DNA of 64,000 nucleotides. It comes from Balanoglossus misakiensis (Eukaryota; Animalia; Hemichordata). Positions 37,401 through 61,400 of this stretch are shown piece by piece (within the stretch, counting starts at the first letter, position 1; each line of letters begins with the position of its first letter). The position numbers were made by a program, and so were the translations under genes. The notes below the pieces were generated by a model. That model was not told where the DNA came from, ran no database searches, and worked only from the letters and a program-made list of their open reading frames with translations. The stretch lies in contig CM082578.2 in NCBI GenBank assembly GCA_040954595.2, forward strand, positions 8,789,519 through 8,853,518, written 5' to 3'.

Positions 37401-40400
37401 GCACGCTCCAGACCAGGACCGCTAGCCTTTACCTTGGTGGGATCAACAACATCTTGGACAGCAGCATGGAATGGACTTCCTGTAATAAATAATTTGCGTC
37501 ACAAGAAAATGAAATACTTGGTTTCATCACAGTGTACTGGCAAGTAAATGGTTCATATTGATATGTATGCTATCATGTGCATTTGAGCAATGCGTGTTCT
37601 GTGTATAAAGCAAAATTTAGACTTGTATTCTACAGCTCACATATTTGTTTTCATTAGGTCGGTTACAGTCTGAGAGGCTACGAATTCAAGAAATTCCTCA
37701 ACAAAGACATTGTAATTTTTATACAGTGTGGGGTACTTGAAACAGAAATCTAGCTCACCTGGAATATGCTGATCAGCAAACTTGATTTGGATATCATAGT
37801 CACCAGGCTTGGTGGGCATGTACTCGACACTACATGTGCCGTCCTTGTTGTCTTTGCAGGTCATCTTGGCCTCGGATGGACCCTCGATGGCCAGCCCCAG
37901 ACCTCCGGTTCCGGCGCCTTTGGTCTCCACGGTGAACTTGCAGGGTTTGTTGGTGTTTCCGCCTTCCAGGCCAGGACCGTAGGCCTTGCACTTGGTGGCA
38001 TCGCATCCTTCGACTACGCCAACCTTGAATGGGGACTTGCCGACCGGTTTGCCAGCGACTTTGACGTCGACTTTGTGAGGACCTGACAGTGAATGATTGG
38101 AATGAATGCGTGTTTTCTAGTGTTTTTGTTAAGGGCGGTACCCAGGTAAATGTCACTGGGGTTCCCAAGTCATTTTACCGGGGTTACTCTTGGTATATCA
38201 ATACAGTCATATTAGTACATACATGTAGCAGAAGCGTTACTGGGGTTCCCGAGTCATTTACCAGTGTACCCCGGGCCTTAGCAAAAACACTGATGTTTTG
38301 TTAAAGATATCCTGATGAATTCGCATCCCATGAATTCTTACACGGTGTGAGATATCTTCACAAGTATTTGTCCGTTTGAAAAACTACCACAGAAGTCAGG
38401 TCTCTGTACATGTATAGAACATACCGGCAGACGACTTCCACGATACCATTCCTGATTAAAATCCTCAATTATGTCACTAACCTTCCTCAGTTGGTGTGTA
38501 GGCAACGTTGTAGGTGCCATCCTTGTTGTCTTTGATGAGCGGTTCGGTCACTTGCCCAGCTGGGTTTGTAACAGCGCACTTCAGTGCATCCTTGGGGAGG
38601 CCTCCGATGGGTTTGGCATCGACCGTGAACTCCGTAGGTGAATCCAAAAACACTCCTGTCATGGGAAGGCAAAAAGATAAGTTGCTATCTGCACCCCATA
38701 ACAATATATTTACCAGTGAGAGAGTATTTCGTTCAAGTTCACTGTTTTGTGAAATACAACTTAATGATGATGGTTTTCTCACAAAATAACCATTGTCCGG
38801 CCAAGTTTTTTTTCATATGTATGTCAAAAAGAACTTATGGAAACTAATTATAAGAAAGTTTCACTCTAGAATAGGCATTGAGTAATACGTTGAAAACTCT
38901 GTTGATCAGAGAGTTTTCACAAATGTTGCCAATATTAGTAACATTCAGCGGACAGAAGAGCTGAACACTTTGGTGGGTGCTGGCATAAGAAGCGATTTGC
39001 GTTTGGTGCAATGTGCTCTTTTTATCACTCCTCTATAAGCCAGTCAGCTGTATGTATTCAAATAATATGCACTTTGAAATATTATTATCACGCCTACATG
39101 ATTGTGTATTTCAGTTTAACAGATTGATATTCCAGCAAAACTGAAGATTTTAAAAGTACAGCAAATGCAATTCTCACGAGAATGCATTATATTGTGTGTG
39201 TGTGTAAAATAAGATCAACGCTGTCAAAATTAAAAGTTAGAAATTAAAACAGAAAAAATGTTTGAGACATGCTTTTACAGCAACTGAAAATACTGTAACA
39301 ATAAAATACCATGCAGTCTGTAACTAATTAACAGAAATATATGAAATGAAAATGATGTATGTGTCTTGTTACAGAATGCAAAATATGTTAGAGAATGTTA
39401 ATAACAAGACTGGGTGTGTGCCAGACCCAGTCTTGCTTTTAGAATATGTGGAAAAACATGCGATGCAACCATAACTCAAGAGATTTATTTGATAATGTAT
39501 TTTTTTCTCAGTCCAATTTTTAGAAGGTGACTTATTTTTCTTGACCTTTCACCCCTGATTTCCCATGCACAACACAAAAAAGAATGGGGAATAACAAAAC
39601 CAGTCCAATGAGGCAACAGGTTTGAGAGCTTGTTGAAAACGTAGCAAGTTTGTTTTCTTTTACTTGAAAGACAGACTTTATCAACAAGAAAACAAGGAAG
39701 AAATTCTGAACAAGACACATAGAATATTTATGATCCAATATGGAAATAAGGATTTGAAAGAAAAACATGTGGAGTAGAGAGATGTTATGTAGATTTTACT
39801 GAAAAAAATATTCAAATTTGAACCTCCTTTGAATGAGAATGGTTAACAACTGATATGAGATGAACATGACAGTCAGATGAGATGGAGATGTCTTTTTATC
39901 TCTTGAAATATTAGTTTTGACTTTATGTAAAAATACTGTGACAGATATGCAATGAAAAGGTTGTTAAGAAAACCATGTATGACAAATGTAGTCATTCTCT
40001 GTCAGTACATGGATCAATGACACATAAGATGCAAGATTAATCTGAGAGAGAGAGAAAGAGAGAGAGATGGTTAGCGTCATGTGGACAAGACGGATATCGT
40101 TCTCTGTTACATGACTCTGCAGCAGCAGAAGATAGGTGGTGCTGCTCTGCCGTGACTGTTAGTTTCAGAGAGGATTCCGTGTCAGTGAACGAAGTCCAAC
40201 CATCGTTAGTATTAGAGATGCAGAGTAGATGCGCTACACCACTACGTTTTGATCGATCTCTAGTGCTACGTGTCACACAGTATGACAATTCATTGAAATT
40301 TACCCTTGGGTTCGATACCCGGTCCAAAGACCTTCACGGCGTCGGTCTTGACGGCAGGCTCCACTGGGATGGTCTTCTTAGCCTTGGGGACGTCGTAGCC

Positions 40401-43400
40401 GCCATATTTGACGTCGACCGTGTGCGGGCCTGGCTCCTTGGGGTAGTAGGAGACGTCGAATGTGCCGTCGTTGTTGTCGTCGACGTCGCACTCCACTGGT
40501 TTCCCGGTGGGGCTCATCACGGCACAGGTGACCGGTTTCTCTCCCTTCTCGACGGGGGCTTCTCCGGCCTTGGTGCAGTCCACCTCGATGTCGGCCGGTT
40601 CGCCAGCTCTGACGCCCGGCTCCAAACCGGGACCCTTGGCAACCACCTTGGAGGCGTCGAACACCTTGGCGGGGAACGGCGATCCCGGGATGTGCTGGTC
40701 GGCGAAGGTGATGTTGATGTTGTACTCGCCGATCTGGTCCGGCGTGTAGTTGACGGTGCAGGAGCCGTCGCCGTTGTCCTTGCAGTCGATCTTGGCCTCG
40801 CTGGGTCCTTCCACGGTCAGCCCGAGAGCGCCCGTGCCGGCTTCCCCGGTCTCGATGGTGAACGTGGCCACTTTGTTGATGTGGCCCCCTTTGAGACCCG
40901 GACCGTGCGCCTTGCACTTGGTGGGGTCGGCCCCGGGGACGGCGGTGGTCTTGAACGGGCTGTTGTTGATCGGCTTCAGACCGAAGGTGATCTCAATGGT
41001 GTACTCGCCCTCCTCAGTCGGAGTGAAGCTGACCCCGTACCCGTCGACGGTCTCCTCGGTGACGACCTCCACGGGCTTACCGGTCGGCGACAGGATGGTC
41101 ACGGTCAGAGGTGCCTCTCCGGCTCCGGACGTAATGACGTCAAACTCCACAACCTTCTGCATTGTGACCGCTGCATTAACAATTGAGTTGGTGGGATCAA
41201 AATCAACAGGAAAACATGCAATTTTCTACCACAGGTCGCATGCAACAATACTACATGTATACTCGGAAGGAAAGATCTATCAACAACTACCGGTAACAGC
41301 AATACGAGGAGAAAGAAATTCTTGGCTGCGTCTTGTGATGCAAATCACTGAACTTTTTGAAATGTCATGAACAGTGTCAACATTCAGAAAATTTAGAAAA
41401 AAAACTTTGGCAATTGATCTGTCAAATTGGACCTATATCATTTGATATATTTAGTACTTGATAGACACTATAAATGTTTAATCTACGTATACATGGCAGA
41501 CCCAACAAAGAAAACTCAGCAATGATGAATTTGGCAGCACACAGCACCATTTCCTTCCCCCTTGATTGTCTAATACCTAGCAAAATAACATGCAGGGCTG
41601 GGTATTTAAAATACCATCAATTATGAATGGATGCAACGAGGGTAAACAGTTTGAACTGTTTTTAAATATATCCACAGTGAGGCAGCTGCTGAAATCAAAA
41701 CACAGTGTAGTCTGACACACATTTCTCAAATCAACAAAAATGAAAGATTTTACTTGAAATAGTAAAAATTCCTTAACGAGGATGAAACCTAACTTACTTT
41801 TTTCAAGACCATCCACATACACTTTAGTCAAGTCGATCTTGGGTTGCACGTCCAGGTAGATGGGGCTCTGGGGGACAGGCTTGCCGTGGTAGCCGATAGC
41901 GATGGCATACTTTCCGGGATTCTCCGGGGTGTAGTGCACGGTGTAGGTGCTGTCTCCGTTGTCCTTGACAGTGGATTTGATCTCCTTCTCGCCTTTGGCG
42001 TTGACGCCCGGGGCTGACTTGACAGCCACATTGATGGGACCTATCAGGAAAGGTGGAAAAGAGGTACAGTCCAGGTCTTGTGAACGACAAATTAAACAGA
42101 AATATCAAAAGATGAAGATTTTGTGAGGAACAGAATATCCAGGAACTGGGAATCTGCCGAAAAAAGTGGTCCTACCTGGTCCACCGGCTTCCTTAACATC
42201 GATGGTGAAGTGGGTGGTTTCCGTGGCTACTACTTTGTCCTTCTCCACACCAGGACCATAGACTTTAACCTTATCGGCGCCACCTTCCACCTCCACTCGG
42301 AAGGGACTGTTGGGGATGACGATGTTGCCGAACGAGATGCTGACAGAGTGCTTCACGGGCCTCGGGGCTGTGTAGGTGCACCTGAACGTCCCGTCTCCGT
42401 TGTCCTTGATGTCGACCGGGACTTCGTTGGCGTACTGGTCGGTGACGGTGACCTTCAGTGGCGCTTTGCCGGCCGCCTTGGTGTCGACGGTGAACTCTAC
42501 CGGCTGGCCCAGTTTCGGACCGTTCTTCTCAACGCCTTTGCCGTATGCCTTCACCTGTGTTCAAAATAGTGCATCGAGTCAAGTGTCATCAATTAGCAAA
42601 ATCAATAAAACGACATTCGTAATTTAGTAAATTTGTCCACACATGGAAGACCTGCCAGATTTCACTCAGGAATTTCCAATGGTGGAAATCAGAATGAACC
42701 ATGGGGTTACAGGAACCAGTCTCACCTTTGATGGGTCGAATCCACCTGGGTTCAGCGAAATCTGAGCCATGTACGGGCTGTGCACAATGTCCTCATCGTC
42801 GCAAGTGATGTGAATGGCATATTCACCAGGTGCGGTTGGAAAGTAGGACACCTCACAGGAGCCATCGCCGTTGTCGACGCACTTGATCTCAGCCTCTGAG
42901 GGTCCCTCGATGGAGAAACCTATGTAGGCAAAAAAGTTGAATGAAGAAATCATCAATTTATTTATCCTATTTTTCCCAATATTTTTTTTCAAATGAAAAC
43001 AGATAATGAACAAAATACTGAGCAGAAACGGCAAAACAATTGAACGAAGAAATAATTTTTAATGGAAAAAATAGCAACTCATCATTTGAAAATAGTGGTT
43101 ATATTTCCTAATATTTTTTTCAAACGAAATACCACAGGAGGATACATTGTGTTCAGGAGATCAACATCTAATAACTGCAGCACAACACTGGACGCATGTG
43201 GCAGGAATCTTCGGCTTACCGAGAGCACCAACAGCACCGTTGGTTTCCACGGTGAAGTTACAAGGCGATCCCACGCAACCACTTTCCAATCCGGGGCCGT
43301 ACGCCTTGACGTAGGACAGTGGCGGTTCAGCCTCTGGCGAGATGTTGACGGTGAAGGGACTCTTCATCACGTGCTCTTTGCCGTAGGTGACATTGATGAT

Positions 43401-46400
43401 GTAGCGGCCGGGCTTCAGGGGGCGGTATCTCACGGTGAACGTGCCGTCGTTGTTGTTGACGATCTGGGCAGGCTCGTTGATGCCTCCTATTTATATGCAC
43501 ACAAAAAATAGCTTGCTTGTTTCTTTCAGTAAATGTGATACAAAATTATGTTGTTTTTTTCAATTTGTCACTAGAACTGTCTTTTGCGTTTGCAATTGAT
43601 AGCTAGTGTCCCAACACTGTTATGCTTGAATCACTCACACGCCATGAACACAGAAATCTTTTCCACACATGATATCTGAATCTTTTCTAAATGAAAGCAT
43701 GTTAATGGTGTACATTTCCTAATAGTTAAATCATTCAAGAACGTGACAAAAATGACAGGCGTCAAATTTGTTTATAAGAAATGACATCCTTTGCAGTATT
43801 AGACACACAGATGATTAGTATGAAAACACACTTAGCGGTGAAATCGTTGGTCTGAATAACACACTCAACGTTACAGTGAGACAGTTGAACCAAGTCATGA
43901 ATGCGTCAAACATAGCACAGCTCAAAGGGTTCTACTTCCTCCACACAGAGAACAAATTTAAGGGGGTCCCTATTCCCTCAACAACACAATCAAGCCAGTC
44001 CCCCGAAAAACTTGTGGAAAACAATTTTAACTAGAAACTTAAGGACAGAAGACCATGGTAAGACCACAGTATTCTCGAAAAGGAAACAGCCATTTGTTTT
44101 TATATAATTTTGAAAAGTTTGTGTTATCCCAAATGGAATATTTTTTTAAATCCATGACTTGTCATATTTGCTGTAATTGCAAATTCACAATTTTGATGAA
44201 GACAACACATAAGCAAATGAAACATGTTACATGATACAAATTGACTTGTAAACAACATCCAAACCAACAATAGCATGTCAGTGACAACAGTTGAGCCTGA
44301 TTATAAATGCATGACAGAATGGTACTTTTCGTTTGAATGTTTTTATTGTTTCAAATTAATGATTAGATATGGATGAACATTGTATATTTGAGTAATTCTA
44401 TGTAGTATTTTTATGAAATGTTAGAATGATCACCAATTGTCCGCTAATGTATACTGATGAAAGTGCATTAGCTACAGCTAGAGAATCTATTTTTGTGGAG
44501 GGAAGAAGTTAGTTTAGAGTATGAGCTCTTAAAGCTATGCTAGTATGAGTCAGACATGCACAGCTCGAAACCTTGACACCCCTAATTCTACATCAAATGG
44601 ACTAGCTATGCCTACGAACCAAATGCTACAAGAGCATCCCATTTCAACTAGAATCTGAGGGGTGGGAAGGTTGATATGAACACTGTAAAGAGGAGTGTAC
44701 CTGGACCAATGATTTGTACTCTGAGTTCGGCCTCCCCAGCTTCTTTAGTGTGCACGGTGAAGACGGCATCCTCTCTGACGCGGATACCCTTGGCCTGTAT
44801 GCCGCGTCCGGTGACGTAGGCTTTCTTGGGGTTGAACACTGCAAGACAAGGCGGAAGAAAAAAGAAAGTTACGTGGAGCTTAGAAATCCAGTCAATGACC
44901 CAAGGTTTGAGAATCATACCTTAATGCCATAACGATCACCTGCTATCGAATCCTTCCCACAGACATTCAGATCCATTACATGTACATCATTGAATGATTT
45001 ACTATAAACAAGTTATCAATTTCCCTTTCAACATGTAGTGGCATTAGACATGCATTTTGTATATGACCTTAAAACCATCCATTAGTCAGAAGAACATTCA
45101 TTTTGGACACATCCTTGTTATTCATTGAAAATGCAGCTCAGACTGCATTGCCATAGTGCTATATCCAGATTACCCTCACACATGCATGGAAAAATTGCGC
45201 CCATACATTATCCCCTTATCACAGTATCGCGCGTGCGTATATACCATATGAAAGAATCGCGCATATACATTCATAGTTGTCGCGCATGCAGCCAGCACGG
45301 AGACCTCATGCGGCAGTCATTTATCGCACCAACGGACCAAGCACCACAGAAATGGCACCATCGTACGGTCAAAATGACATTGCCTGCAGTTTTACCTGCC
45401 ACTACCCTGGCTCGGGCCGGAGCGCGTCTACGACCCAGCTCTTGTGCGGAGAATACACCATTGTGTCCCTCTGCAATGGCATATTTGCAAATTTTATAAC
45501 AATTTTAGTACTTCTACAATAAAATCTTTTCAAAATTATAAAAAGATTTTTTCCGCTTGGTTTTTTTTGGACATACATGTAGCATACTCACCTTCATTTT
45601 ATAAAATCACATGACAATACAATTAAAAACTTGATGTCTCACACGTGGCATATTTGTGTACTTGTTTGTTTTTGTAAATTTTGGAAATTTCATAATGTGA
45701 CACCAAAATTAAAACTGTGCAACTAACATGCAAGTGTGACTGTACATTTTGTTAGTATCAATTTCTCCCGTACTTGTCACCAAACACCATTTTGTTACCT
45801 GGTACAAGATCTTCTTCTATCACCTCAAAGCTGTGGTCTCTGTCAACACGCTCCAGGCTCTCTGGTATGGTAGATTCATGATATTGAAGAGTTTTTTTAT
45901 CCACAGAGATTATATCAAATTAAGAAAGTACAACCCTCCTATTCAAGGGCTGTCAATATTTTAGTTGATCAGAGATCAGAGAGATAAACTCCTGAAGCAA
46001 TGCCATGTTGATGGCTCAAAAAAGCTCATTGTATATGTAGAGACAGTCAAAACTTGAGCTGTGAGTGCCTACATACGGCATTCTAAAAGCCACCTGCTCA
46101 TGGCAGAATAGACCCAAATTTCATGATCCAATTAATGAACAATGCCGCTGGGTATCCTCTTTTATGTTTTAAGAGAGGCAGTTGTCATGACGATAGAAGA
46201 TAAACATCACACACCACAACACTATAATATTTCTTTCTTTATTTTGGAAGGTCTTGTTGGTGTAACATGTACAGGTATGTTATCAGTAAGATAAAAAAAT
46301 TTCACGAACAGCATGACAATTCTCATGTACCGACTCATTAAAACTGATGACCTGATATTTTCATTCTCTGAAGATTGTATAAGCTTGAGCAGAACACAAC

Positions 46401-49400
46401 AGTGACCCCAAAACACCAGGCAGTATTATGCAGCTCTGATAATTACCTGACAACAGAAACTCAACGTCCAGTGCACTTTCAATGTGTTCTTGGACCACTG
46501 GCATGATTTCTTCTTCTGGAAGGATCAGATTTCACAGATTGAGAAGACCAGGAATCAGATTTCAGATACCGTAACACATCATTTTCAGAAAACATACTCC
46601 ACTGACTGACTGACTTGTTTATTTCAGCACTGACGCGACAGTGACAAGTCAACATACAAACATGCCAAATCTAACACCTGAAAATGTCACAGTGAAATGC
46701 TGCAATGTTTCTATGTCAGCCTCTTTCATTTACCTTGAATAACATTCTCACTCTTCACAATCTCAGCACCATCTCCTTCCACAACTTTCCAGAACTCTTC
46801 TTCTGGTGAATGCAAAACAGACTTTTACCTCTTAGTGTCTTGTCTGTTATACCACCACTCAACATGTTGTGCTACCTAACGTTGCCCCAAATAATGGCAT
46901 TGTTATCCTTTTGACTGACATCATCAATGTAAATTAAAACCACCCTCATGTTCTGTGATACACCCACTACAACCTATCAGCCCACCTGTCCACCAAATAT
47001 ACCAGACCAACTGACCATACCAATGTGCTCACCAAAATGTTCTTTTCTCATTTTACCTGCTGCAAAATTCCTTTCAAATGACATCTTCACGGTCTGTTTG
47101 TCCACGTGGGAGATTTCCTCCTCTTCTGTTTCAGAAAACAAGACATCGTTCAGAAAGTCACCCCGTGTTCAAATTTGTGACTCAATCCCACGGAATGTTT
47201 AATCACACTGACTGCCAAAATCCCATGCTAGACCCTACTTGGTTCTGATCGCCTAGATGAGAAATGACTGTACCTCAATACTGCTAACAAGAAAGATACA
47301 AATTTGTGACCTGCCAATGTGCATGTTACGGTGCTGGAGAAAAACAGTGCTCAACCATTCACAGCATTGCTCATATATTGAGCAGGACACTTCAGTCATC
47401 ATCTTTGCACACTTTACCTGGTTGAAAGTATGTGATTTCTGTGCGTTCAATTCTTGGTGTTTCTGCTTGCTGTGTACCTTCAGTTCTTCTCTCAAACATC
47501 GTGTGAAATCTTTCTTCGATTTTGGATATACCCTTCCTTACAGTGGTGACTAGTTTTATACACAAAGACATTGGTTTACACAAAGTGTTCAGGAAAAGGC
47601 TTTGATGATCACGTTTGAAAACACCGCATCACTTCTTGGTTATGTCTTGAGGTGGAGGTATCTATCTCTCCAGGAGATGAATATTTTATGCATCGTCTTG
47701 CTTTGATTTTTCAACTGTTTTGCAATGAGTCAGAATTTTCCCACCAGTACATTGGTATTGAACTAATCACTTGATGTTAACAGAGATGATAGCCATGGAT
47801 GTTCAAAAGAAATACAAATGTGATTCACAAACGTTGATGTTACTATTATTCAATGCACCATTCAAGTGGTTTGCATGATACTATGCTATTCATAACTATA
47901 TACCGCTAACTGAACACTTAACAAGTACCTCCAGAAGATAAGACTTCACTGACTCCACTTTCTTGCACACTGACAGCTTCCTTTTCAAAGACAGTTTCAG
48001 GAGGTTCAGCTTCTGTTACAACATCTGATTCCAAGACAACCACAATAGGTTCTTCAACCAGAGTGGGTTCTTCTACCATTGCAAAGTCGCTTTCTATCAT
48101 GCCCAGACTTTGTTCTGATATGAGAACAGAGACCATTGTATCATGTGTGCATGGTTGTCTAATCGAGCAATAGAACACCACCTTAAAGTCCTGAGTTGAT
48201 AACAATATATAGTGTCATCCATGGCCCTGATACCTAGTGGCATCAATGCCTAACCGGTGCAAACCCTGTGAGCAGGGTGTTCATTGCCATATGTGTTATT
48301 CTGTTCTCCTAACAAACAGACAGTTAAAGGTAGAGTTGTACTGGAACATGAAAGAGTTGGACAGATTGAGAGTCCATAGAAAGTCTTCAGACAAGATGCA
48401 TATAGTTGTAAACCAGTGAAGATAATATTCGCTTTCCACCAGGTATTATCCGGTGGTAATGAATGTGAAACATCTTGTCTTGTGTCCACTTCATCACCGT
48501 TCCCCAACCAGTGTATGTGCGTATACCAAACATATAACAATCAGGGATGTTCACTGTTTACCTGGTTCAACACTGACTTCAACTGCACTTTCGATTCTTG
48601 GCTGTTCAGTTACTTTCACAACTTCTTCCTGTTCATCAACTGCGTCTTTTTTCATCAATGACTGAAACCTCTCTCCAATTTGAGTGAAACCACTCTTGAC
48701 CACCGTGACTGGTCCACACAAATAATGCAAAAATATCATGATTACAATCTCTGCTTAATCATACCAAATACAACAATGATAGAGATCAGTCCACTTTTAA
48801 TTTTGTACCAATGGGAGCTGACAAACACCAGACAAATTTATAACCATACTTTCCCACCAATCATCTTACACAACATGTACCTGTTCTAGACATTATTTTA
48901 GTGTTGCTTTCATAATCTTGATCTTCTGATTCTTGTAAACTGACTGTAGCCTTTTCTAAGATGATTTCTGGAGGTTCAGCTTCAGTTACAACATCTGTTT
49001 CCAAGACAACCACAGCAGGTTCTTCAACCAGAGCAGGTTCTTCTACCATTGCAAAGTCGCTTTCAATCATGCCCACACTTTGTTCTGGTGTACGAGAACA
49101 TGGACCACTTAATATTCATTCCATAGTCTTTGGACAATGTGCACAATTGTACATCTGTCAAGCTAGTATCCACGTTCTGCCAAGTATTATGGCAGTAATG
49201 AATGCAAAACGTCTTGTGTATTGTCAAATTCATCACCATGAACCCATCCCGGTGTGTGTGCATATACCAAACATATAGCCATCCAAGCCAATGTTCACTG
49301 TTTACCTGGTTGTAAATTGACTGCGATTGCACTTTCAATTGTTGGTTGTTCAGTTACTCTGATAACATCTTCTTCCTGTTCATCAACTGTGTCTTTTTTC

Positions 49401-52400
49401 ATCATTGACTGAAACCTCTCTCCAATTTGAGTGAAACCTCTCTTAACCACAGTAACTGATTTACACAAAGAATGGGAAAATATCATGGTTACAAATTGAT
49501 CTAATCATACCAAAGTCAACACTGATAGCAACTGTTCCACTTTAGATTTTGTACTGATACTAATAGGATCAGACAAAATTCTAACCACACATTGCCACCA
49601 ACAATTTCGTACAACATGTACCTGTTCTAGATGTAATTTTAGTGTTACTTTCATGATCTTGATCTTCTGGTTCTTGTAAACTGACAGTAGCCTTTTCAAC
49701 AATAATTTCTGGAGGTTCAGCTTCTGTTACAACATCTGTTTCCAAGACAACCACAGTAGGTTCTTCAACCAGAGCAGGTTCTTCTACCATTGCAAAATCG
49801 CTTTCAATAGTGCTCAGACTTTGTTCTGGTGTACAAGAACAAGGGCCAGTTCATAAAATTTTCCCAGTTTGGTTACATCTACCTACTCTTTCAACCACCA
49901 TGACAAATGACAGAAAACAACCAAGTCCTGAGTAGACGTACAACACAAGTGTTATCCATGTCCCTGATACCTAGTGGCATCATTGCCAAACCAATGTAAA
50001 CCATGTGAGCAGGGTGTTCAGTGCCATCTGTTATTCTGTACTCATAACAAGAAGACAGCTACATTGTAGGTAGAGATGTACTGGAACAAGACAGAGTTGG
50101 ACAGAGTAAGATTCCATAAAAAGTCTTTGAAAACCTGTGAACATAACATTCACTTTCCAACGAGTATTGGTATTTGGCAGTAATGAATGTGATACATCTT
50201 GTTTTATGTTAACTTCATCAAAATGCACCCACCACAGTGTATGTGTGTGTACCAACATCACCCCTACTAATCAAACAGGGATGTTCACTGTTTACCTGGT
50301 TCAACACTGACTTCAACCGCACTTTCAATTCTTGGCTGTTCAGTTGGTATCACAACTTCTTCCTGTTCATCAACTGTGTCTTTTTTCATCATTGACTGAA
50401 ACCTCTCTCCAATTTGAGTAAAACCTCTCTTAACCACAGTGACTGCAGGTTTACACAAATAATTCAAAATTATCATGGTTACTAAATCATCCATTTATCA
50501 AAAATCTCTGCTGAATCATAACAAATTCAGCAACGATGAAAATCGTTCCATTTTTGATTTTGCACCGAAAGGATCAGACAACAGACAGACATATTCCTAA
50601 CCACACTTTCCCCACCAACAATTTTGTACAACATGTACCTGTTCTAGATGTAATTTTAGTGGTGCTTTCATCATCTTGATCTTCTGGTTCTTGTAAACTG
50701 ACAGTAGCCTTTTCAACAATAATTTCTGGAGGTTCTGTTTCTGTTACAACATCTGTTTCCAAGACAACCACAGCAGGTTCTTCAACCACAGTGGGTTCTT
50801 CTACCATCGCAAAATCGCTTTCAATCATGTGCAAACTTTGTTCTGATACGAGAACAAGGACCAGTTTATCACTATTCCAAACTGATTACATCTACTGTAC
50901 TCTACCACATCAACCACCATGACAAACAGAAGAACACCACCAAGTCCTGAGTTGGTAACATCTGTGTTATTTATTTCTCTGACACCTTCTGGTATTATTG
51001 CCAAACCATGTGAGCAGTGTGTTCAGTGCAATCTGCTCTACTGTACTCATCACAAGAATACAGCAGACAGAGGCGTACTTAAACGTGAAGGAGTTAGACA
51101 AGGTCAGAGTGAGATTCCGCAGAAAGTCTTTGGGCAAGGTGCATAGTCGTAAACCAGTGAAGATAACATTCGCTTTCCACCAAGTAATCTGGTGGTAATG
51201 ACTTTGAAACACCTTGTCATGTATCAAATTCATCACAGTGTGTCAGTGTAAGTGTGTGTGCGTACATGTACACCAAAATCACCAAACATACACCCATCCT
51301 AACAAACAGGATGATCACTGTTTACCTGGTTGTAAATTCACTGCGATTGCACTTTCAATTCTTGGTTGTTCAGTAACTTTGATCACTTCTTCTTCCTGTT
51401 CATCAACTGTGTCTTTTTTCATTATTGACTGAAACCTCTCTCCAATTTGAGTGAAACCTCTCTTAACAACTGTGACTGGTTGGGTGGCAAGACAAAAATG
51501 AGATGTTTACAACTTTATAGGAACATCTGCAGGCTGAACTTGACTACATTCGATCACCATCTAATGAACACCATTACCGAAGCACTACAACACCACAGCT
51601 GGTGCAACATGTAAACCAGTTACGGCTTACAAATAAAAACATGTTCTGCATAGACTTTCCATGGGTTTACCTGTTCTGGATGTAATTTTAGTGTTACTTT
51701 CACCATCTTGATCTTCTGGTTCTTGTAAAGTCACAGTAGCCTTTTCGAAGACGATTTCTGGAGGTTCAACTTCTGTTACAACATCTGTTTCCGAAACAAC
51801 CACGGTAGGTTCTTCAACCAGAGCAGGTTCTTCTACCATTGCAAAGTCGCTTTCTATTATGTTCACACTTTGTTCTGATATGAGAACAAAGATCACGAAA
51901 TCAGGTTTGCATACAGCGTCAGTCTAATCTACCAACCAACATGACAAATGGCAAAAACCACAAGTCCTGAGTTATACATGTACTGGTGCCTAAGAAGTGT
52001 GAACAATGTCAGCGATGTGTTCAATGCAATCTGTTCTTCTGAACTCATGACGAGAAAACAGCAAAGTAGTGATGTCCTGGAATATGACAGAGTTGGACCG
52101 ACACAGATAGAGTGAGATTCCATAGGACGTCATTAGACAAGCTGCATACCAGTAGTTGTAAACATGTGAAGATAACATTTTCTTTCCACAAAGTATGATT
52201 TGGTCCTAATGAATGCAAAACACCTTGTCCTGTGTCAGATATCATCACCACGAACCCACCACAGTATGTGTGCGTATACCAAACATATAGCCATTCTAAG
52301 CAATCTGGGATGTTCACTGTTTACCTGGTTGTAAATTGACTGCAATTGCACTTTCAATTCTCGGCTGTTCAGTTACTTCCTCAACTTCTTCATGTTCCTC

Positions 52401-55400
52401 AACTGCTTCTTTTTTCATCATTGACTGAAACCTCTCTCCAATTTGAGTGAAACCTCTCATAACCACGGTGACTGGTTTACACAAATAATGCAAAGATATC
52501 GTGGTTACAAATTGATCCAATCACTAAAACTGATTTTGTACTAGCAGGATTAGAACAAAACAAGACATACAGTATTTTGAAACACATTTTCCCACCAACA
52601 ATTTTGTACAACATGTACCTGTTCTAGATGTAATTTTAGTGTTACTTTCATAATCTTGATCTTCTGGTTCTTGTAAACTGACTGTAGCCGTTTCTAAGAC
52701 GATATCTGGAGGTTCAGCTTCAGTTACAACATCTGTTTCCAAGACAACCACAATAGGTTCTTCAACCACAGTGGGTTCTTCTACCAATGCAAAGTCACTT
52801 TCAATCGTGCTCAGACTTTGTTCTGGTGTACAAGAACAAGGGCCAGTTCATAAAATATTCACAAACAATCAACCACCATGACAAATGACAGAAAACCACC
52901 AAGTCCTGAGATGAAGTACAACACAAGTGTTATCCATGTTCCCGATACCTAGTGGCATCATTGCCAAACCAATGTAAACCATGTGAGTAAGGTTTTCAGT
53001 GCCACCTGTATTCTGTACTCGATCATAACAAGAAGACAGCAAGGTAGAGTTGTACTGGAACATGAAAGAGTTGGACACAGTAAGATTACACAGAAAATCT
53101 TTAGACACGTTGCCAGTTGCAAACCTGTCCAGCTTACATCCACCTTCCACCAAAACTCGCACTCTGAGGGTATTGAATGCAAAACGCCATGTATATTGTC
53201 AAATTCATCACCACGAACCCACCACAGTGTGAGTGCATATATCCAACATAAAGCCATCCTAATCAAGCACGGATGTTCACTGTTTACCTGGTTGTAAATT
53301 GACTGCAATTGCACTTTCAATTCTTGGCTGTTCAGTTACTTCCGAATCGATCACTTCTTCTTCCTGTTCACCAACCGTGTCTTTTTTCATCAATGACTGA
53401 AACCGCTCTCCAATTTGAGTGAAACCTCTCTTAACCACGGTAACTGGGTTTTATGCAACACAAAAAGGGTACCTTGACGATTTGATAGCAACATCTGTGA
53501 CAAAATCAGGCTAATTTTCCACAACTGGTCCGAAGGTACAACACACTACACCTGGTGTAAGATGTAAACATGTCACAATGCTTATAAACAAAAACATTGT
53601 CTGTATCCACTTTCCATGGGTTACCTGTTCTAGATGTAATTTTAGTGTCATTTCCGTCGCCTTGATCTTCTGCTTCTTGTAAACTGACTGTGGCCTTTTC
53701 TAAGATGATTTCTGGAGGTTCAGCTTCCGTTACCACATCTGTTTCCAAGACAACCACAGCAGGTTCTTCAACCACAGTGGGTTCTTCTACCATTGCAAAG
53801 TCGCTTTCTATCATGCCCAGACTTTGTTCTGGTGTACGAGAACAAGGGCCAGTTCATAAAATATTCACAAACCGGTTACATCTACCGTATTCCATCAACC
53901 ACCATGACAAATGACAGAAAAGCACCAAGTTCTGAGTAGACAACACAAGTGTTATCCATGTCCGGATACCTCAGTGGCATCATTGCCCATCCTGTGCAAA
54001 CCATGTGAGTAGTGTGTCCAGTGAAATGTGCTTTAATTTCTGTATTCAATTAGAATACAGCAAGGTAGAGTTGTTTTTTGAATGGGACTGAGGTGGACAG
54101 ACATGCCACTGAAAATATGGACAAATGTAGGACTACAGAACTGTCAAGGAAGACAATTACACCCTCCACCCGAGATATTTGGTGACCATGACTTCAAGGC
54201 ACCAGGTTTCACATCAGGCAAACTCATTTTGCACCCAAGTATGTTAGTATGTCCCGGTATATACCGAACATGTTACCCATCCAATAATTGCCACCGTTTA
54301 CCTGGTTGTAAATTGACTGCAATTGCGCTTTCAATTCTTGGCTGTACAATTACTCTGATCACTTCTTTTTCTTCCTGTTCACCAACTGCATCTTTTTTCA
54401 TCATTGACTGAAACCTCTCTCCAAGTTTAGTGAAACCTCTCTTAACCACAGTCACTGGTTCATGGAACACAAAGAGCATAGGCTGACAATCTGAACATTT
54501 TCAGTGCAGAGACAACAAACTTTCCACCACACCTGTTAGATCTTTCATATACTGAACACTTTATGACTGACAAGAATATATTTCCAAGTCAAGTTTATAC
54601 ACAAAACACCAAACCCCAAAAGACAAAATCTGTAGATGAAGTCACTCCATGTAAATAAATGACATTTCCACTAACAGCTATATGCACCGCTTTTGTTCCA
54701 TGACAGTTACCTGTTCCAAATGCAAATTTTGTGCTACTTTCATCGTGTTCAGCTTCTGTTTCTTGAACACCGACAACATCCTTTTCCGAAACAACATCAG
54801 GTTCTTCAACTACTGTAATCTCTCCTGCATGCTCGCGACCACTGCCTCTGCCCCGTGTCACAATTGTGTGGAACTTTCCCTCGATGGCTGTCAAACCTCT
54901 TTTCACTAAGGAAGCTGAGAGGTAAAGATAACTCAGAGTACACAATCATGATTCTCCCAAAGAATTTCAAGATTGTGGAGAACAGATAAAAAGAAAAATA
55001 GTAGCATCTGCAAATCAGGCTGACGATCAAGCAAAGGCAAAACAAGAAAGAAGGAAGCAACAACAAATCATGGATGCTGGACTGACCCAACAGAGTACGT
55101 GAATGTTTAAGAGGAGAGGAGTTTGATTTGCCCAAAAGCAACATTCAGTATCTCGACGTTGTCATGCAACAGCATCGGAAGAAGAGAACAGTACTAAGGG
55201 TTAGAGTAGACAGGTTTGTGTCACCCAAAGATCCCATTTAAGACACTGTGTGTCACTCAACCAAACCGGAAGAACTCTGAATGTATTCTTGTACCTCTCG
55301 TTTTCTTGGGGATAACTTGGACTTCTATTGGGATGTTCTTGACAAAGACGGTGATGAGAGTTTCCACTCGGACATGTATCCGTACTTTCAAGCCACCAGT

Positions 55401-58400
55401 CAAGGAAAACATAGCCAAACGTCAGGATAACGACTAATTAAACGATGAACTTGTAAGTATTCCCACCAAAACTATACATGTAAGTGCTGCCATGGTCATT
55501 GCTATAACACAACATGCATATACATGTACAATGGACCCTGGTCCCTCATATCATCCAGATCAGAACAACAATATGTCAGAGGTGTGTAGTATGCCATATC
55601 TGTTAATGTGGGACTGTCCAACCACCAGCGAAGCAAAACAAGAAAGCAGCAAGAAAATCAACCAAAATAAAATTACATTTGACTATACACACTGCCACAA
55701 AGATATACTAATGTTTCAGATGTGCATGTGCATGTGCATGTGATTGAACCTATCCTCATCACCACATGGATTCACAATAATACCTGGTGGGAAATTCTTT
55801 TGTTGGACGCTCTCAATTCTGGGTTCTATGCGAAGTGTAATGATCCCTTCTTCTTGTCCCTGCCTTCTTGGGCTGACATCCTTTGTCACCATGGAAACAG
55901 GTTTGTTTACCTTCTTTCTCACTGTGGTTACTGGTTTATCAGATACAGACACAGGCGTCATGGTTTATATAGTGCATGAGGCATGTCTATCAACTGACCA
56001 ATGCCCCCCAATTCGACAGTAATTGTTCAAAAGAATTTATAAAAAATACATGCTTCTCTCAGCAGAACATGTAACAAACAAAAATTCTTATATAATATAG
56101 TATAATTCTCCTTCTGGTATATGATTCAGATAATCCAATCTTTATCAACTACCTTCTCTCGTCCAACATTAATATTTATTGCATAATATCATATGAACCT
56201 GTGACAGATATCATAAAAGTACACAACTGAAGTGCTGTGAACTCTTTTCTTTTCAGTACCTGTTGTAATTATCATCTCCCCAGAGTCTTCCCAACCTCTG
56301 ACCACTCTTTCTCGCAAACTGACATTGTCCATTGTAAAATCCTCTTCAATGATGGAGGCATTTTGTTCTAACAAGTGAATAAAGCGCATTATGCATTCCA
56401 TGACTGAGAGTCATTTAAATCATGGCTTGCTTTTCACTGGAAAAATATTTCGTCAAACACCAGATAATGTAAGAACATTTTCAGTTATGAAACGTGCCAC
56501 CAAACAGAGCTATACCCCAGACCAACACATACAATTGTGCATCTAGCCATGTACACCAGTACAAATACACCCCTATGCTTGAATGTACGTTTTACCTGCT
56601 TCTTTTAAATCAATCACCATTGCACTATAGACCCTGGGTTCTCTTTCGGTGGACAAGGAAACTTCACCTTCGTGACTACTGTCTGTTCTCTGTGCAACGG
56701 CTGAGGATAACTCGATTGTTGGTTCAGAGTTTCCTTTTATAATGAGTGTGACTTTTTTCAAAAGGAAAAAAGGGAAAGAATTACTCTGGATGATGATGAT
56801 GAAGCAACTTTGTAGAATGCCGTTATCATCATTTAAAAAAAAAAGTCAATACAACTATGGTATAACGAAAAAAAATTCAAGTACTAAGAGGGATAATTCA
56901 ATCCGTCTTTATTGAATCCAAAAAGATCAGCTTCATATTATTATTATTTTCATGTATTATTCACAGCCAATCCTACCTGCTGGAAAATTCATCTCAGTGG
57001 TATTTTCATTATTGGTTTCCTCAGGTAATGTGACTTCCTCCTCTACAACTGTGACACTGGACTCCACAGGAATAGAGACCTCTTTCTCCAAGATGGTCAC
57101 GCTTGGCTCTTCAGGTAATGTGACTTCCTCCTCTACAACTGTGACACTGGACTCCACAGGAATAGAGACCTCTTTCTCCAAGATGGTCACGCTTGGCTCT
57201 TCAGGTAATGTGACTTCCTCCTCTACAACTGTGACACTGGACTCCACAGGAATAGAGACCTCTTTCTCCAAGATGGTCACGCTTGACTCTTCAGGTAATG
57301 TGACTTCCTCCTCTACAACTGTGACACTGGACTCCACAGGGATAGAGACCTCTTTCTCCAAGATGGTCACGCTTGACTCTTCAGGTAATGTGATTTCCTT
57401 CTCAATAACTGTGACACTGGACTCCACAGGGATAGACACCTCTTTCTCTAAGATGGTCACGCTTGACTCTTCAGGTAATGTGACCTCCTCCTCTATAACT
57501 GTGACACTGGACTCCACAGGGATAGACACCTCTTTCTCTAAGATGGTCACGCTTGACTCTTCAGGTAATGTGACCTCCTCCTCTATAACTGTGACACTGG
57601 ACTCCACAGGGATAGACACCTCTTTCTCCAAGATGGTCACGCTTGACTCTTCAGGTAATGTGACCTCCTCCTCTATCACTGTGACACTGGACTCCACAGG
57701 GATAGACACCTCTTTCTCCAAGATGGTCACGCTTGACTCTTCAGGTAATGTGACCTCCTCCTCTATCACTGTGACACTGGACTCCACAGGGATAGACACA
57801 TCTTTCTCTAAGATGGTCACGCTTGACTCTTCAGGTAATGTGACCTCCTCCTCTATAACTGTGACACTGGACTCCACAGGGATAGACACCTCTTTCTCCA
57901 AGATGGTCACGCTTGACTCTTCAGGTAATGTGACCTCCTCCTCTATCACTGTGACACTGGACTCCACAGGGATAGACACCTCTTTCTCCAAGATGGTCAC
58001 GCTTGACTCTTCAGGTAATGTGACCTCCTCCTCTATCACTGTGACACTGGACTCCACAGGGATAGACACATCTTTCTCTAAGATGGTCACGCTTGACTCT
58101 TCAGGTAATGTGACCTCCTCCTCTATAACTGTGACACTGAACTCCACAGGGATAGACACCTCTTTCTCTAAGATGGTCACGCTTGACTCTTCAGGTAATG
58201 TGACTTCCTCCTCTAGAACTGTGACACTGGACTCCACAGGGATAGACACCTCTTTCTCTAAGATGGTCACGCTTGACTCTTCGGGTAATGTGACTTCCTC
58301 CTCTAGAACTGTGACACTGGACTCCACAGGGATAGACACCTCTTTCTCTAAGATGGTCACGCTTGACTCTTCAGGTAATGTGACCTCCTCCTCTATAAGT

Positions 58401-61400
58401 GTGACACTGGACTCCACAGGGATAGACACCTCTTTCTCTAAGATGGTCACGCTTGACTCTTCAGGTAATGTGACTTCCTCCTCTACAACTGTGACACTGG
58501 ACTCCACTGGGATAGACACCTCTTTCTCCAAGATGGTCACGCTTGACTCTTCAGGTAATGTGACCTCCTCCTCTATAACTGTGACACTGGACTCCACAGG
58601 GATAGACACATCTTTCTCCAAGATGGTCACGCTTGACTCTTCAGGTAATGTGACCTCCTCCTCTATCACTGTGACACTGGACTCCACAGGGATAGACACA
58701 TCTTTCTCTAAGATGGTCACGCTTGACTCTTCAGGTAATGTGACCTCCTCCTCTATAACTGTGACACTGGACTCCACAGGGATAGACACCTCTTTCTCCA
58801 AGATGGTCACGCTTGACTCTTCAGGTAATGTGACCTCCTCCTCTATCACTGTGACACTGGACTCCACAGGGATAGACACCTCTTTCTCCAAGATGGTCAC
58901 GCTTGACTCTTCAGGTAATGTGACCTCCTCCTCTATAACTGTGACACTGGACTCCACAGGGATAGACACCTCTTTCTCTAAGATGGTCACGCTTGGCTCT
59001 TCAGGTAGTGTGACTTCCTCCTCTATAACTGTGACACTGGACTCCACAGGGATAGACACCTCTTTCTCTAAGATGGTCACGCTTGACTCTTCAGGTAATG
59101 TGACCTCCTCCTCTATAACTGTGACACTGGACTCCACAGGAATGGAGACCTCCTTTTCCAAGATGGTCACAATTGACTCTTCAGGTAATGTGATCTCCTC
59201 CTCTACAACTGTGACACTGGACTCCACAGGGATAGAGACCTCTTTCTCCAAGATGGTCACGCTTGACTCTTCAGGTAATGTGACTTCCTTCTCAATAACT
59301 GTGACACTGGACTCCACAGGGATAGACACCTCTTTCTCTGACACAGCGTAATTGGTCTGTTCTGGCAATGTCACTTCATTCTCCGTGACAGCGACAGTTG
59401 AACTGCCATGCTGACTGACACTGCGTTTGACCGAGGTAAAAGTTGATGACTGTGATGTTGAGAAGCTGCTCCTTGTGCTTGAGAAGACGGACCCTCCTTC
59501 AATGGTGGAATTCTTGGTGGTATCTTTCTCTGAGGCAGTGATACTCGACAGTTCAGGCAGTGTGACTTCCTTCTCGGTGAGAGTGACAGAGGACCGGCCA
59601 GGTAATGTGACGTCTTTTTCTATGATAGTGACATTTGATTCTCCTTGCTGAGTGCCATCTCGCCTCTCTGAATAGAAACTGCTTGACTTTGTTGTAGTTG
59701 TTGATGTTGTTGAGATACTTTCCCTCATTCTAGTGGAGACCGACCCCCCTTCCAGTGTAACATCCTTGGTGCTAAAACTAGACTGGGATATTGATGGAAG
59801 CATGGTCGTCGTAGTTTCGCCCTTTTCTATAATGGTGATGGTTCTCTTCCCTGGTTCCCTGACCTCCTTCTCAAGAACAGTCGTCATGGACTTTTCTGGC
59901 GCCTTCATCCCATCCTTCTCGACGATCGTAACAGAGGAATATGCGGCTATAGTAACAACATTGGAGGAGGCATGTTTATGGTGGAACACACTTGACTATT
60001 GTGTGAAAAAACAAAATACTGCATGTGCCTATCCTGATCTGGATTTGAAGTGTCATGGTTCAATCACCAGCACTTTCACAAAGGTTAAGAATTGATGATA
60101 AATGGGGAACAGTTTTCACTGTGTGTGCACTGAGTAGATTAGCAATTAGGACAATACATCTCAATGATGTTCTGCTGTAGTCAACAAAATATACCTAGTA
60201 TGTTTAGTCTAGAAGGTTGTGGGCAAGTCAATTTTCGTACCCGGTTGAGCCGTTCACCTTCACCAGACAGTATAACTGTTTACCTTGCCGAGATCTGATC
60301 TTCTTTTCACTTTGCACCCTTCGCACTTCTGTGCTGGTAGTCTCGTTTTGCATGAACATGCGACTGCGCTGTTCAATGAACGATGAAGTCTGACGGCGCG
60401 CTGACACACAAGGTTGAAATGAGAAGAAAATCAGGTCGTGATGTCATCGTTGAACGGACTGAACTGGACGACTACTGGTACTGAACATATCCCTCTCTCC
60501 AACCGAACGTGCAACTGACCGCTGTTAGATTGTGGTGCTTCAGTTGTGTTCAACGAAATAATTCTGGGTGAAGTGCAACACCTGTCCGCGGGTGTAATCA
60601 GTGGATGTTTCCAGGTGCAACCCTCCACGTTCCCAGGTGCACCCTGTGTGTACTGGTATGTCAGGGTGCAATCTGGATATGTCACATATCAGAGGCACTG
60701 CCTGTACACATCACTTGTGCACCCGATCTGTCTGTAACAGTGTCAACATCTGCTCTCACTGACATGAATATAGTTGTTGGTATGGTGGGGTTAGTATCTC
60801 TTTGCTGACAAAACGCAGCCCTGTACACCAAAAGTCAGAGTGCCTCCCGATGGTCCCCACTGTGAATTTTGTTTTATTTCGTTTACCTGGTGGGAATGCC
60901 ATCTTGCTGTTTCTAACCTGCTCTGTCGCAGATGAGCTGAAAACCAGCCCATTTCCTGAATTGGATTCAGACAACATTTATGATGAAAGGCAGCGTTAAT
61001 TCCTTGACAAATCAAAAACTCACCAGCCAAAGTTAATGGCAACATAACTTTACATAAGAAATATATATCTGTTATCACAACCACTGAAAAAAATCTTCAT
61101 CTGTAACCTATAAATGGTGTGTGACAAGATGTTCAGGTCTGACGATAACCTATTATCATCAAAACAAATACACAAATATGCCATTTGGGACTGGACCCTT
61201 AAGAATACATTATAATCTTTTATCACTAACTTAACTGCCCATGCACTGCTGGGCATTTTATAAGACAGTGAATTTGGCTATTCCCCCTTCACCACTACCA
61301 ATTCAGTCCACCTCTTACTGTTGATAGTGTGACCTGACCCTGAAATGGCTATCAAATCAAGCGCTGCTCGCTGCTGTAGAATATCTCCGCTTGAATCTCG

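What the first reader, a model, noticed from the sequence alone, without database searches (positions are those of the whole stretch)
46447..59339. Insert repeats resemble canonical filamin-binding beta-strand motifs: a filamin that may carry its own ligands
Seen: type B cassettes end in [11 protein letters not shown] or [11 protein letters not shown]. Diverged cassettes keep [11 protein letters not shown] (56596) and [11 protein letters not shown] (46447). The giant exon repeats PVESSVTVI and PEESSVTIL about 26 times each. Known: ligands bind the CD face of class A filamin repeats (Ig4, 9, 12, 17, 19, 21, 23) by beta-strand addition, using a hydrophobic-x-S-x-hydrophobic-x-hydrophobic-x-hydrophobic pattern. 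Examples recalled from memory: migfilin KRVASSVFITL, integrin beta7 PLYKSAITTTI, GPIb-alpha [19 protein letters not shown] aligns position for position with RVASSVFITL. Inference: the insert may be a multivalent array that auto-inhibits the filamin in cis (Ig4 is nearby) or clusters filamins in trans, with valency set by splicing. The giant-exon versions lack the last hydrophobic position and are very acidic, so they fit less well.
Basis: partly seen in the sequence, partly recalled or inferred. Interest (0 to 1): 0.78.

Follow-up and report, generated by a model that had tools for sequence, protein, structure and literature searches.

The report
Acorn-worm filamin carries ligand-like cassettes
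An acorn-worm filamin gene holds a long array of conserved, likely optional exons between two rod domains, seven of which end in a peptide shaped like filamin's own binding partners and are predicted to plug the protein's binding grooves, while the neighbouring giant repeat exon lacks that shape and is likely a spacer.

Summary
The window holds a minus-strand filamin gene, 93.6% identical to Ptychodera flava filamin. Between Ig2 and Ig3 lie 27 candidate phase-1 exons (about 2,240 codons). The A and B cassettes are under purifying selection (dN/dS 0.44 and 0.37). P. flava gene models skip the whole insert or single cassettes. All 7 B cassettes end in a 12-mer in register with four published CD-face ligands. 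At most 5 of 2,000 shuffles reach its score; without the terminal Pro, 20-79 do. The pattern persists in five P. flava copies, with only hydrophobic swaps at groove positions. The giant-exon repeats fail the pattern (0 hits, 2.0 expected), and the 46447 copy is not kept in P. flava. B cassettes also open with a conserved block spaced like an F-actin-binding motif (weak match). Binding and expression in this species are untested. Best reading: spliced-in tethered ligands for rod-1 class A repeats (0.45). New variant of known filamin auto-inhibition. The scan's notes held no earlier finding of it.

The parts
61544..61744 (-). Constitutive exon ending Ig2; its donor opens the insert region
60887..60955 (-). 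Candidate cassette e1 (69 nt); no counterpart seen in P. flava models
60284..60400 (-). Candidate cassette e2 (117 nt)
56977..59946 (-). Giant exon, 2,970 nt, 989 aa: S/T-rich head, then about 52 alternating 15-residue acidic units; no CD-face pattern match; net charge -0.19 per residue
56596..56751 (-). Diverged cassette e4 with [12 protein letters not shown] at 56600-56635 (pattern met, no terminal Pro)
56260..56367 (-). Candidate cassette e5
55784..55930 (-). B-related cassette e6 with a decayed motif ([12 protein letters not shown])
54711..54914 (-). Cassette A0: 5' KRG helix block, acidic body, no CD-face motif; repeated in P. flava
54302..54454 (-). B1: helix block 54408-54437, CD-face-like 12-mer 54303-54338
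53625..53828 (-). A1, acidic spacer cassette (204 nt)
53288..53443 (-). B2: 12-mer 53289-53324
52619..52822 (-). A2
52325..52471 (-). B3: 12-mer 52326-52361
51671..51874 (-). A3
51326..51475 (-). B4: 12-mer 51327-51362
50639..50842 (-). A4
50296..50442 (-). B5: variant 12-mer [12 protein letters not shown] 50297-50332
49622..49825 (-). A5
49306..49455 (-). B6: 12-mer [12 protein letters not shown] 49307-49342
48881..49084 (-). A6
48562..48708 (-). B7: variant 12-mer 48563-48598; 221 codons from Ig3 if all later cassettes are included
47929..48114 (-). A7 (186 nt)
47418..47549 (-). B8: intact frame, helix block kept, CD-face motif decayed here and in P. flava
47057..47125 (-). Short cassette s1; conserved in P. 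flava and skipped in its isoform X2
46734..46802 (-). Short cassette s2; conserved in P. flava
46447..46515 (-). Short cassette s3 with [12 protein letters not shown] at 46451-46486; positional counterpart in P. flava lacks the motif
45799..45861 (-). Short cassette s4; conserved in P. flava
45396..45470 (-). Short basic cassette s5; 67% identical over 21 residues in P. flava, where isoform X11 includes it alone
44701..44838 (-). Constitutive exon starting Ig3; closes the insert
42726..43486 (-). Two exons encoding Ig4, the nearest class A repeat (C/D strands [17 protein letters not shown])
40656..40931 (-). Class A repeat equivalent to human Ig9, within one exon

Best explanation
The insert is a conserved, likely alternatively spliced and likely disordered segment of an acorn-worm filamin, in which each B cassette ends in a peptide predicted to add a beta-strand to the CD groove of a class A filamin repeat, likely the protein's own Ig4. 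Shown: exon anatomy, purifying selection, motif register, cross-species conservation and intact class A grooves. Inferred: with the insert spliced in, a B peptide tethered about 220 residues from Ig3 would reach 0.3-0.6 mM near Ig4 and compete with outside ligands. Tension along the rod would pull it off, giving rod 1 a force-gated site like Ig20-21. Spare copies would be free to bind other filamin molecules. The giant exon and the A cassettes would set length and charge rather than bind. The 5' block of each B cassette may be a weak F-actin anchor.
For: Four ligand peptides read in papers share one register, groove residues at 2, 4, 6, 8, 10 and Pro at 12: migfilin (PMC4554727), integrin beta7 (PMC1948075), GPIb-alpha (PMC5484675), FilGAP (PMC2654154). 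B 12-mers score 15.3-16.8 on a matrix of these four; held-out ligands score 9.9-16.3; shuffles reach the B score 0-5 times in 2,000 for 7 of 7 copies. Among 695,845 windows of 270 other fetched proteins, 5 reach 15.1 and 0 reach 16.8. P. flava filamin has 5 such motifs, 4 scoring 15.1-18.6. Over 8 distinct variants from both species, positions 2, 6, 8, 10 show only V/I/L/F and position 4 only Ser, while outward positions take polar residues. dN/dS is 0.37 for B and 0.44 for A; exons differ by 12-14%, their introns by 29-39% with 3.0-3.4 against 0.2-0.6 gap openings per 100 nt. All 7 class A repeats keep the C/D signature. A review states that the CD faces of repeats 4, 9, 12 and 17 are not covered by a neighbouring strand (PMC10889191), so they are free for a tethered ligand. 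P. flava models X12 and X13 join Ig2 to Ig3 directly; X5 and X8 drop a B motif. Worm-like-chain estimate: 0.27-0.57 mM at 5 nm, within reported Kd values of 150 nM to 500 uM.
Against: The seven copies are one duplicated family, and the pattern was chosen after seeing them. Without the Pro, 20-79 of 2,000 shuffles (groove positions only) or 4-45 of 2,000 (all positions) reach the score, marginal over about 20 exon families. The Pro is partly a splice-site effect: 11 of 27 insert exons end in Pro and 24 of 27 in P/T/A/S, and 1 of 5 P. flava copies lacks it at position 12. Position 3 is an invariant Glu in all B variants but A, K, R or S in the four ligands, which could point to another partner. 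The motif is degenerate: a Drosophila screen found no clear pattern among predicted ligands (10.1101/2025.05.02.651884), and this filamin's own Ig20 strand A scores -2.2 on the matrix. Related cassettes e6 and B8 have lost the motif yet are kept. The unrelated cassette array at the same junction in Ciona has no matrix or pattern hit, so a long insert here does not need it. The P. flava models that carry the cassettes begin inside the insert and lack the actin-binding domain, so no fetched model shows a full-length isoform with B cassettes.
Confidence: 0.45

Rival explanations
1. The B peptide is a real binding motif, but for another protein that accepts an added beta-strand; the likeness to filamin ligands is the generic look of an amphipathic strand. 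The insert would be a spliced docking platform.
For: Invariant Glu3 and acidic outward residues differ from three of four ligands. Modest significance without the Pro. The 5' block is as conserved as the strand across species, so the cassette holds at least one motif with another purpose.
Against: Ser at 4 and Pro at 12 are not required by amphipathy alone, yet match the four ligands (Ser or Thr at 4). The FilGAP peptide has the same acidic E-x-x-V-E-P ending. A suitable receptor lies in the same chain.
Confidence: 0.25
2. The insert is an elastic or length-setting acidic spacer, as in titin PEVK or giant ankyrin exons (recalled, not tested); the conserved blocks reflect recent duplication and splice signals, not binding.
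For: Composition E 19%, V 16%, S 12%, T 10% and net charge near -0.2 per residue in giant and A exons. No credible Pfam family. Unrelated long inserts in Ciona, Branchiostoma and Patiria filamins without the motif. This is the best reading for the giant exon and the A cassettes.
Against: Conservation inside B is uneven: two blocks are kept across species and the linker between them is not; dN/dS is 0.21 in the first 20 codons, 0.50 in the middle, and 0.06 in the last 13 among the five IAVNL-type copies, though 0.36 over all seven. Substitutions in the strand keep one face hydrophobic.
Confidence: 0.2
3. The main role of the cassettes is F-actin binding through the 5' helix block, giving a multivalent side-binding array; the strand is secondary.
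For: Spacing of hydrophobic residues at 1, 4, 8 with invariant Phe8 in 9 KRG-type blocks of the window and 11 of P. flava, as in the SFM motif VxxLxxxFE; Gln at position 9 is tolerated in USP54 (PMC13364712).
Against: The strict motif and the V/I/L-at-1 version match 0 window cassettes; only with Phe allowed at position 1 do 7 of 7 B match, with 323 of 20,000 shuffles matching too. Position 1 is among the most conserved and is Val. 1-4-8 spacing is common to amphipathic helices.
Confidence: 0.07
4. The cassettes are decaying intronic duplications or assembly artefacts and are not translated.
For: No transcript evidence for this species could be examined. The giant exon has no relative among candidates or in the P. 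flava models, and its copy number could be an assembly matter.
Against: Open frames and splice sites in all 16 A/B-type exons while introns drift; dN/dS below 0.5; homologous cassettes in annotated P. flava isoforms.
Confidence: 0.03

Closest known systems
Filamin A auto-inhibited pairs Ig20-21 and Ig18-19 (PMC1948075; passages read)
   Same: A strand of filamin's own chain occupies a class A CD face in place of an outside ligand, and splicing (var-1) can remove it. This gene keeps its own Ig20 strand A (4136-4165).
   Different: There the strand is donated by the neighbouring Ig domain, one per site, in rod 2. Here the candidate ligand lies in a long insert between Ig2 and Ig3, in seven near-copies, each on its own exon; binding is not shown.
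CD-face ligands migfilin, integrin beta7, GPIb-alpha, FilGAP (PMC4554727, PMC1948075, PMC5484675, PMC2654154; passages read)
   Same: Twelve-residue register with hydrophobic 2, 6, 8, 10, Ser/Thr 4 and Pro 12; FilGAP depends on avidity, as an array would.
   Different: They are separate proteins; three of the four are neutral or basic, while the B motif has an invariant Glu at 3.
Ptychodera flava filamin isoforms X1-X8, X10-X13 (RefSeq names given)
   Same: Same junction, homologous B, A, A0 and short cassettes, five B motifs, cassette skipping between models.
   Different: Unit order is B-A-A0 rather than B-A; no giant exon in the fetched models; models with cassettes lack the actin-binding domain, possibly because they are cut short.
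Ciona intestinalis long filamin isoforms and vertebrate filamin C Pro-rich insert
   Same: An optional insert just before Ig3; in Ciona an array of about 50-residue repeats that vary between isoforms.
   Different: No detectable sequence relation (hhalign probability 0.3%) and no CD-face pattern hit in the inserts.
SFM short linear F-actin motif of ITPKA and Lifeact (PMC13364712; parts 1-4 of 19 read)
   Same: 1-4-8 hydrophobic spacing with Phe at 8 in the 5' block of B, A0 and B8.
   Different: Position 1 is mostly Phe or Leu and position 9 Gln or His; the strict motif is not met.

Membership tests
Filamin (animal, class A repeats intact) | Tandem filamin Ig repeats after a CH domain | tested here: met
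   Pfam PF00630; 23 repeats by HMM in the exon model and in P. flava X13; end of the CH region at 63896
Filamin (animal, class A repeats intact) | Seven repeats with the C/D-strand signature of human 4, 9, 12, 17, 19, 21, 23 | tested here: met
   7 of 23 repeats carry it; alignment to solved human repeats 4, 19, 21; list of repeats from PMC10889191
Filamin CD-face ligand (B cassette) | Alternating groove-facing hydrophobic residues with Ser/Thr at 4 | tested here: met
   7 of 7 B copies and 5 of 5 P. flava copies
Filamin CD-face ligand (B cassette) | Proline right after the strand | tested here: met
   7 of 7 here, 4 of 5 in P. flava; feature from PMC4554727; partly favoured by the splice donor
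Filamin CD-face ligand (B cassette) | Measured antiparallel strand addition to strand C of a class A repeat | not testable with these tools
   Needs NMR, ITC or a structure
Filamin CD-face ligand (giant-exon repeats) | Alternating groove-facing hydrophobic residues with Ser/Thr at 4 | tested here: not met
   0 matches against 2.0 expected; Glu falls at groove position 10; unit scores -1.0 to 3.5 against 8.25-9.25 for B
Filamin auto-inhibitory domain pair (Ig18-19, Ig20-21 type) | Blocking strand is strand A of the preceding Ig domain | tested here: not met
   The B motifs lie in cassette exons at least 221 codons before Ig3 when all are included; the likeness is in function only
SFM F-actin motif | VxxLxxxFE consensus | tested here: not met
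   0 strict matches; V/I/L-at-1 version 0 in the window and 3 in P. flava; met only if Phe is allowed at 1
SFM F-actin motif | F-actin binding lost on changing positions 1 and 8 | not testable with these tools
   Bench assay
Alternatively spliced cassette array | Symmetric exons under selection | tested here: met
   27 of 27 are phase 1-1 multiples of three; dN/dS 0.37 and 0.44
Alternatively spliced cassette array | Transcripts with and without the cassettes | tested here: inconclusive
   Seen only as annotated gene models of P. flava; no reads examined for this species

The most novel reading that the evidence does not exclude
Ptychoderid acorn worms evolved a splice-tunable, built-in ligand array for filamin: each B exon is a two-headed module, an F-actin-binding helix and a CD-face strand joined by an acidic linker. 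Together they clamp the otherwise open rod-1 sites, cross-link filamin dimers in trans, and act as sacrificial bonds that release up to about 850 nm of hidden length under load.
Probability: 0.2. Interest if true: 0.78.

Novelty: new variant of a known kind. Interest (0 to 1): 0.5.

Why it matters
The rod-1 class A repeats of filamin have ligand grooves like those of the rod-2 force sensor, but no known cover, and a review leaves open how they could be force-gated (PMC10889191). A natural filamin with a tethered, repeated and spliced ligand would show one way, and offers a peptide that is simple to test. It also marks the Ig2-Ig3 junction as a site where acorn worms, a tunicate and vertebrates each carry optional inserts. 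Five paper searches listed no study of this insert; the library lacks most subscription papers. The limit is reach: the cassette family was found only in P. flava among 1.84 billion cluster representatives, so it looks lineage-restricted.

Tried and rejected
Complex prediction of the Ig9-equivalent with the last 30 residues of B4 gave no verdict (0.31 against a mark of 0.34; controls 0.02, 0.02, 0.01); it is not evidence either way. No RNA holder was listed for 44650-54600, so no reads were laid; this says nothing on expression. No genome is held. A fold of a cassette together with Ig3-5 in one chain was not obtained, so docking in cis is unmodelled. A single-sequence model of 240 giant-exon residues gave strands every 15 residues at pLDDT 58, pTM 0.41; rejected as a likely artefact, since AlphaFold 2 folds perfect repeats into unrealistic beta-solenoids (PMC11795689, abstract only). 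The giant exon found no relative among 7,977 candidates of 1,732-4,945 residues (weak evidence), and its Pfam hit DUF2804 had no passing stretch. The Atlas gave no usable hit for B4 and did not answer for the giant exon. The second profile hit P0283 is a Cys-rich repeat matching 15 positions; taken as chance. Homology of B to the Ciona repeat: not found. An apparent frameshift in B8 was my misreading; the frame is intact. One search used a wrong frame and was repeated. An ELM filamin motif was not found among the 15 listed papers. A SUMO-interacting-like look of the giant units (recalled motif) was considered and not tested.


Full report
Setting. The window holds most of an animal filamin gene on the minus strand, from the end of the CH region (63896) to the stop near 65. 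The exon model has 23 Ig repeats and is 93.6% identical over 2,228 residues to Ptychodera flava filamin isoform X13. Over the C-terminal part the next relatives among the 120 long filamins are Patiria (69%) and Branchiostoma (63-66%). The organism is therefore likely an acorn worm close to Ptychodera (inference). Seven of the 23 repeats carry the C/D-strand signature of the human ligand-binding repeats, matching solved human repeats 4, 19 and 21. I use human numbers for them; that mapping is my inference.

Anatomy. Between the Ig2 donor (61544) and the Ig3 acceptor (44838) lie 27 candidate exons, all phase 1 at both ends and multiples of three, 2,236 codons in all. In order: two small exons, the 2,970-nt giant exon, three diverged cassettes, A0, seven B-A pairs, B8 and five exons of 63-75 nt. 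In most homologues where the junction could be placed, Ig2 joins Ig3 directly. The named peptides are present, with the count corrections given in the observation check.

Are the exons real? Among the seven B and seven A copies, exons differ by 12% and 14% and their introns by 29% and 39%; gap openings are 0.6 and 0.2 per 100 nt in exons against 3.0 and 3.4 in introns; dN/dS is 0.37 and 0.44. These are pairwise averages over related copies, not independent counts. P. flava has homologues of B, A, A0, B8, s1, s2, s4 and s5. Of its 11 models, X12 and X13 join Ig2 to Ig3, X11 adds only s5, and X1-X8 carry cassettes; six of these compared with X1 each lack one cassette or one unit, two of them losing a B motif. 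These are annotation models, and those with cassettes start at a Met inside an A exon and lack the actin-binding domain. I read that as likely truncation but cannot exclude real short isoforms. No reads were examined for this species.

The motif. I took four ligand peptides from papers (passages only; alignment figures not visible, supplements not read): beta7 (PMC1948075), migfilin (PMC4554727), GPIb-alpha (PMC5484675) and FilGAP (PMC2654154). The FilGAP paper names the groove-facing residues, which fall at positions 2, 4, 6, 8, 10 with Pro at 12; the migfilin paper notes a Pro after the strand in all solved partners. The B 12-mers fit this register. On a four-ligand matrix B scores 15.3-16.8, held-out ligands 9.9-16.3, shuffles 0-5 of 2,000; 5 of 695,845 windows in 270 other fetched proteins reach 15.1 (P. 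flava isoforms left out). Against this: the copies are one family, the test is post hoc, and without the Pro the shuffle counts rise to 20-79 or 4-45 of 2,000. The Pro is also favoured by the donor site (11 of 27 exons end in Pro). The stronger argument is the substitution pattern. Eight distinct variants from two species keep V/I/L/F at 2, 6, 8, 10 and Ser at 4, while positions 1, 5, 7, 9, 11 vary among mostly polar or small residues. That is a selected one-faced strand. Which protein receives it is not shown; the invariant Glu at 3 is unlike the four ligands.

What does not fit. The giant exon has 0 pattern matches against 2.0 expected, and its best window is reached by 199 of 200 shuffles; Glu falls at groove position 10. 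It is acidic (-0.19 per residue) and is best read as a spacer. This does not exclude weak binding: the gene's own Ig20 strand A scores -2.2, and its human counterpart binds despite a poor fit. e4 and s3 meet the pattern but are not significant on the matrix, and the P. flava exon in the place of s3 lacks the motif. e6 and B8 have decayed motifs.

A second block. The first 20 residues of B are as conserved across species as the strand (dN/dS 0.21). They have hydrophobic residues at 1, 4 and 8 with invariant Phe8, the spacing of the F-actin motif VxxLxxxFE (PMC13364712, parts 1-4 of 19). The strict motif is not met; allowing Phe at 1 and Gln at 9 matches 7 of 7 B and 8 sites in P. flava, with 323 of 20,000 shuffles of B4 matching as well. 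This is a lead only.

Mechanism. Shown: exons, selection, register, conservation, intact grooves. Inferred: the insert is disordered. B7 lies 221 codons from Ig3, which gives 0.27-0.57 mM at Ig4 but under 0.01 mM at 25-35 nm for a 900-residue tether, so binding in cis favours Ig4. With one near site per chain, seven copies would raise occupancy or serve other filamins in trans. Tension between the actin-bound end and the dimer would run through the insert and strip the strand, freeing the groove. I give this 0.45; another partner 0.25; plain spacer 0.20; mainly actin binding 0.07; not translated 0.03.

Comparison and novelty. A filamin that carries its own ligand strand is known (Ig18-19, Ig20-21). 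What differs is a repeated, exon-encoded ligand in a rod-1 insert, aimed at repeats that a review lists as uncovered (PMC10889191, passages). Long inserts occur elsewhere: before Ig3 in Ciona and, short and Pro-rich, in three vertebrate filamin C models, and at hinge 1 in Branchiostoma and Patiria. None of the Ciona, Branchiostoma or Patiria inserts has a matrix hit. A profile of the B family found 2 proteins among 1.84 billion, one being P. flava filamin X10 and one a likely chance hit. Searches listed no paper on it. Also seen: 10.1101/2025.05.02.651884 (parts 1-3 of 5), PMC10164935 and PMC5521747 (passages), PMC11795689 (abstract). The class A term and the titin and ankyrin analogies are recalled.

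Noticed in passing
window 33807-33923, minus strand: A 117-nt phase-1 cassette inside the Ig15-equivalent, with an RRxS site and a Thr run; near-identical in P. flava, where 9 of 11 models include it, and similar in Patiria.
   Followed up: partly
window 40304-41170, minus strand: This 867-nt symmetric exon, which holds the class A Ig9-equivalent, is skipped in P. flava model X10, so the number of receptor grooves may also be spliced.
   Followed up: no
   Followed up: partly
window 8981-31504: A 22.5-kb intron before the hinge-1 exon (8980-8875); an exon scan found no other convincing exon there. A possible site of an internal promoter, as in Drosophila cheerio; not tested.
   Followed up: partly
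window 41798-42554, minus strand: The gene has 23 rather than 24 Ig repeats, as does P. flava; the missing one appears to be in the Ig6-7 region (from recalled human sequence).
   Followed up: no
window 832-864, minus strand: Hinge 2 begins with a strand-like [11 protein letters not shown], identical in P. flava, right after the class A Ig23-equivalent; a possible further self-ligand, not among the top matrix scores.
   Followed up: no
P0133 690-1470, P0136 1-1725 (Ciona intestinalis): An unrelated array of about 50-residue repeats with a KKGF-led block before Ig3, varying by 50 residues between isoforms.
   Followed up: partly
P0126 1835-2779 (Branchiostoma), P0167 1712-2136 (Patiria): Large optional inserts at hinge 1; the Branchiostoma one looks like a long coiled coil.
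   Followed up: no
P0048, P0057, P0112 (vertebrate filamin C models): A Pro-rich insert of up to about 65 residues at the same Ig2-Ig3 junction.
   Followed up: partly
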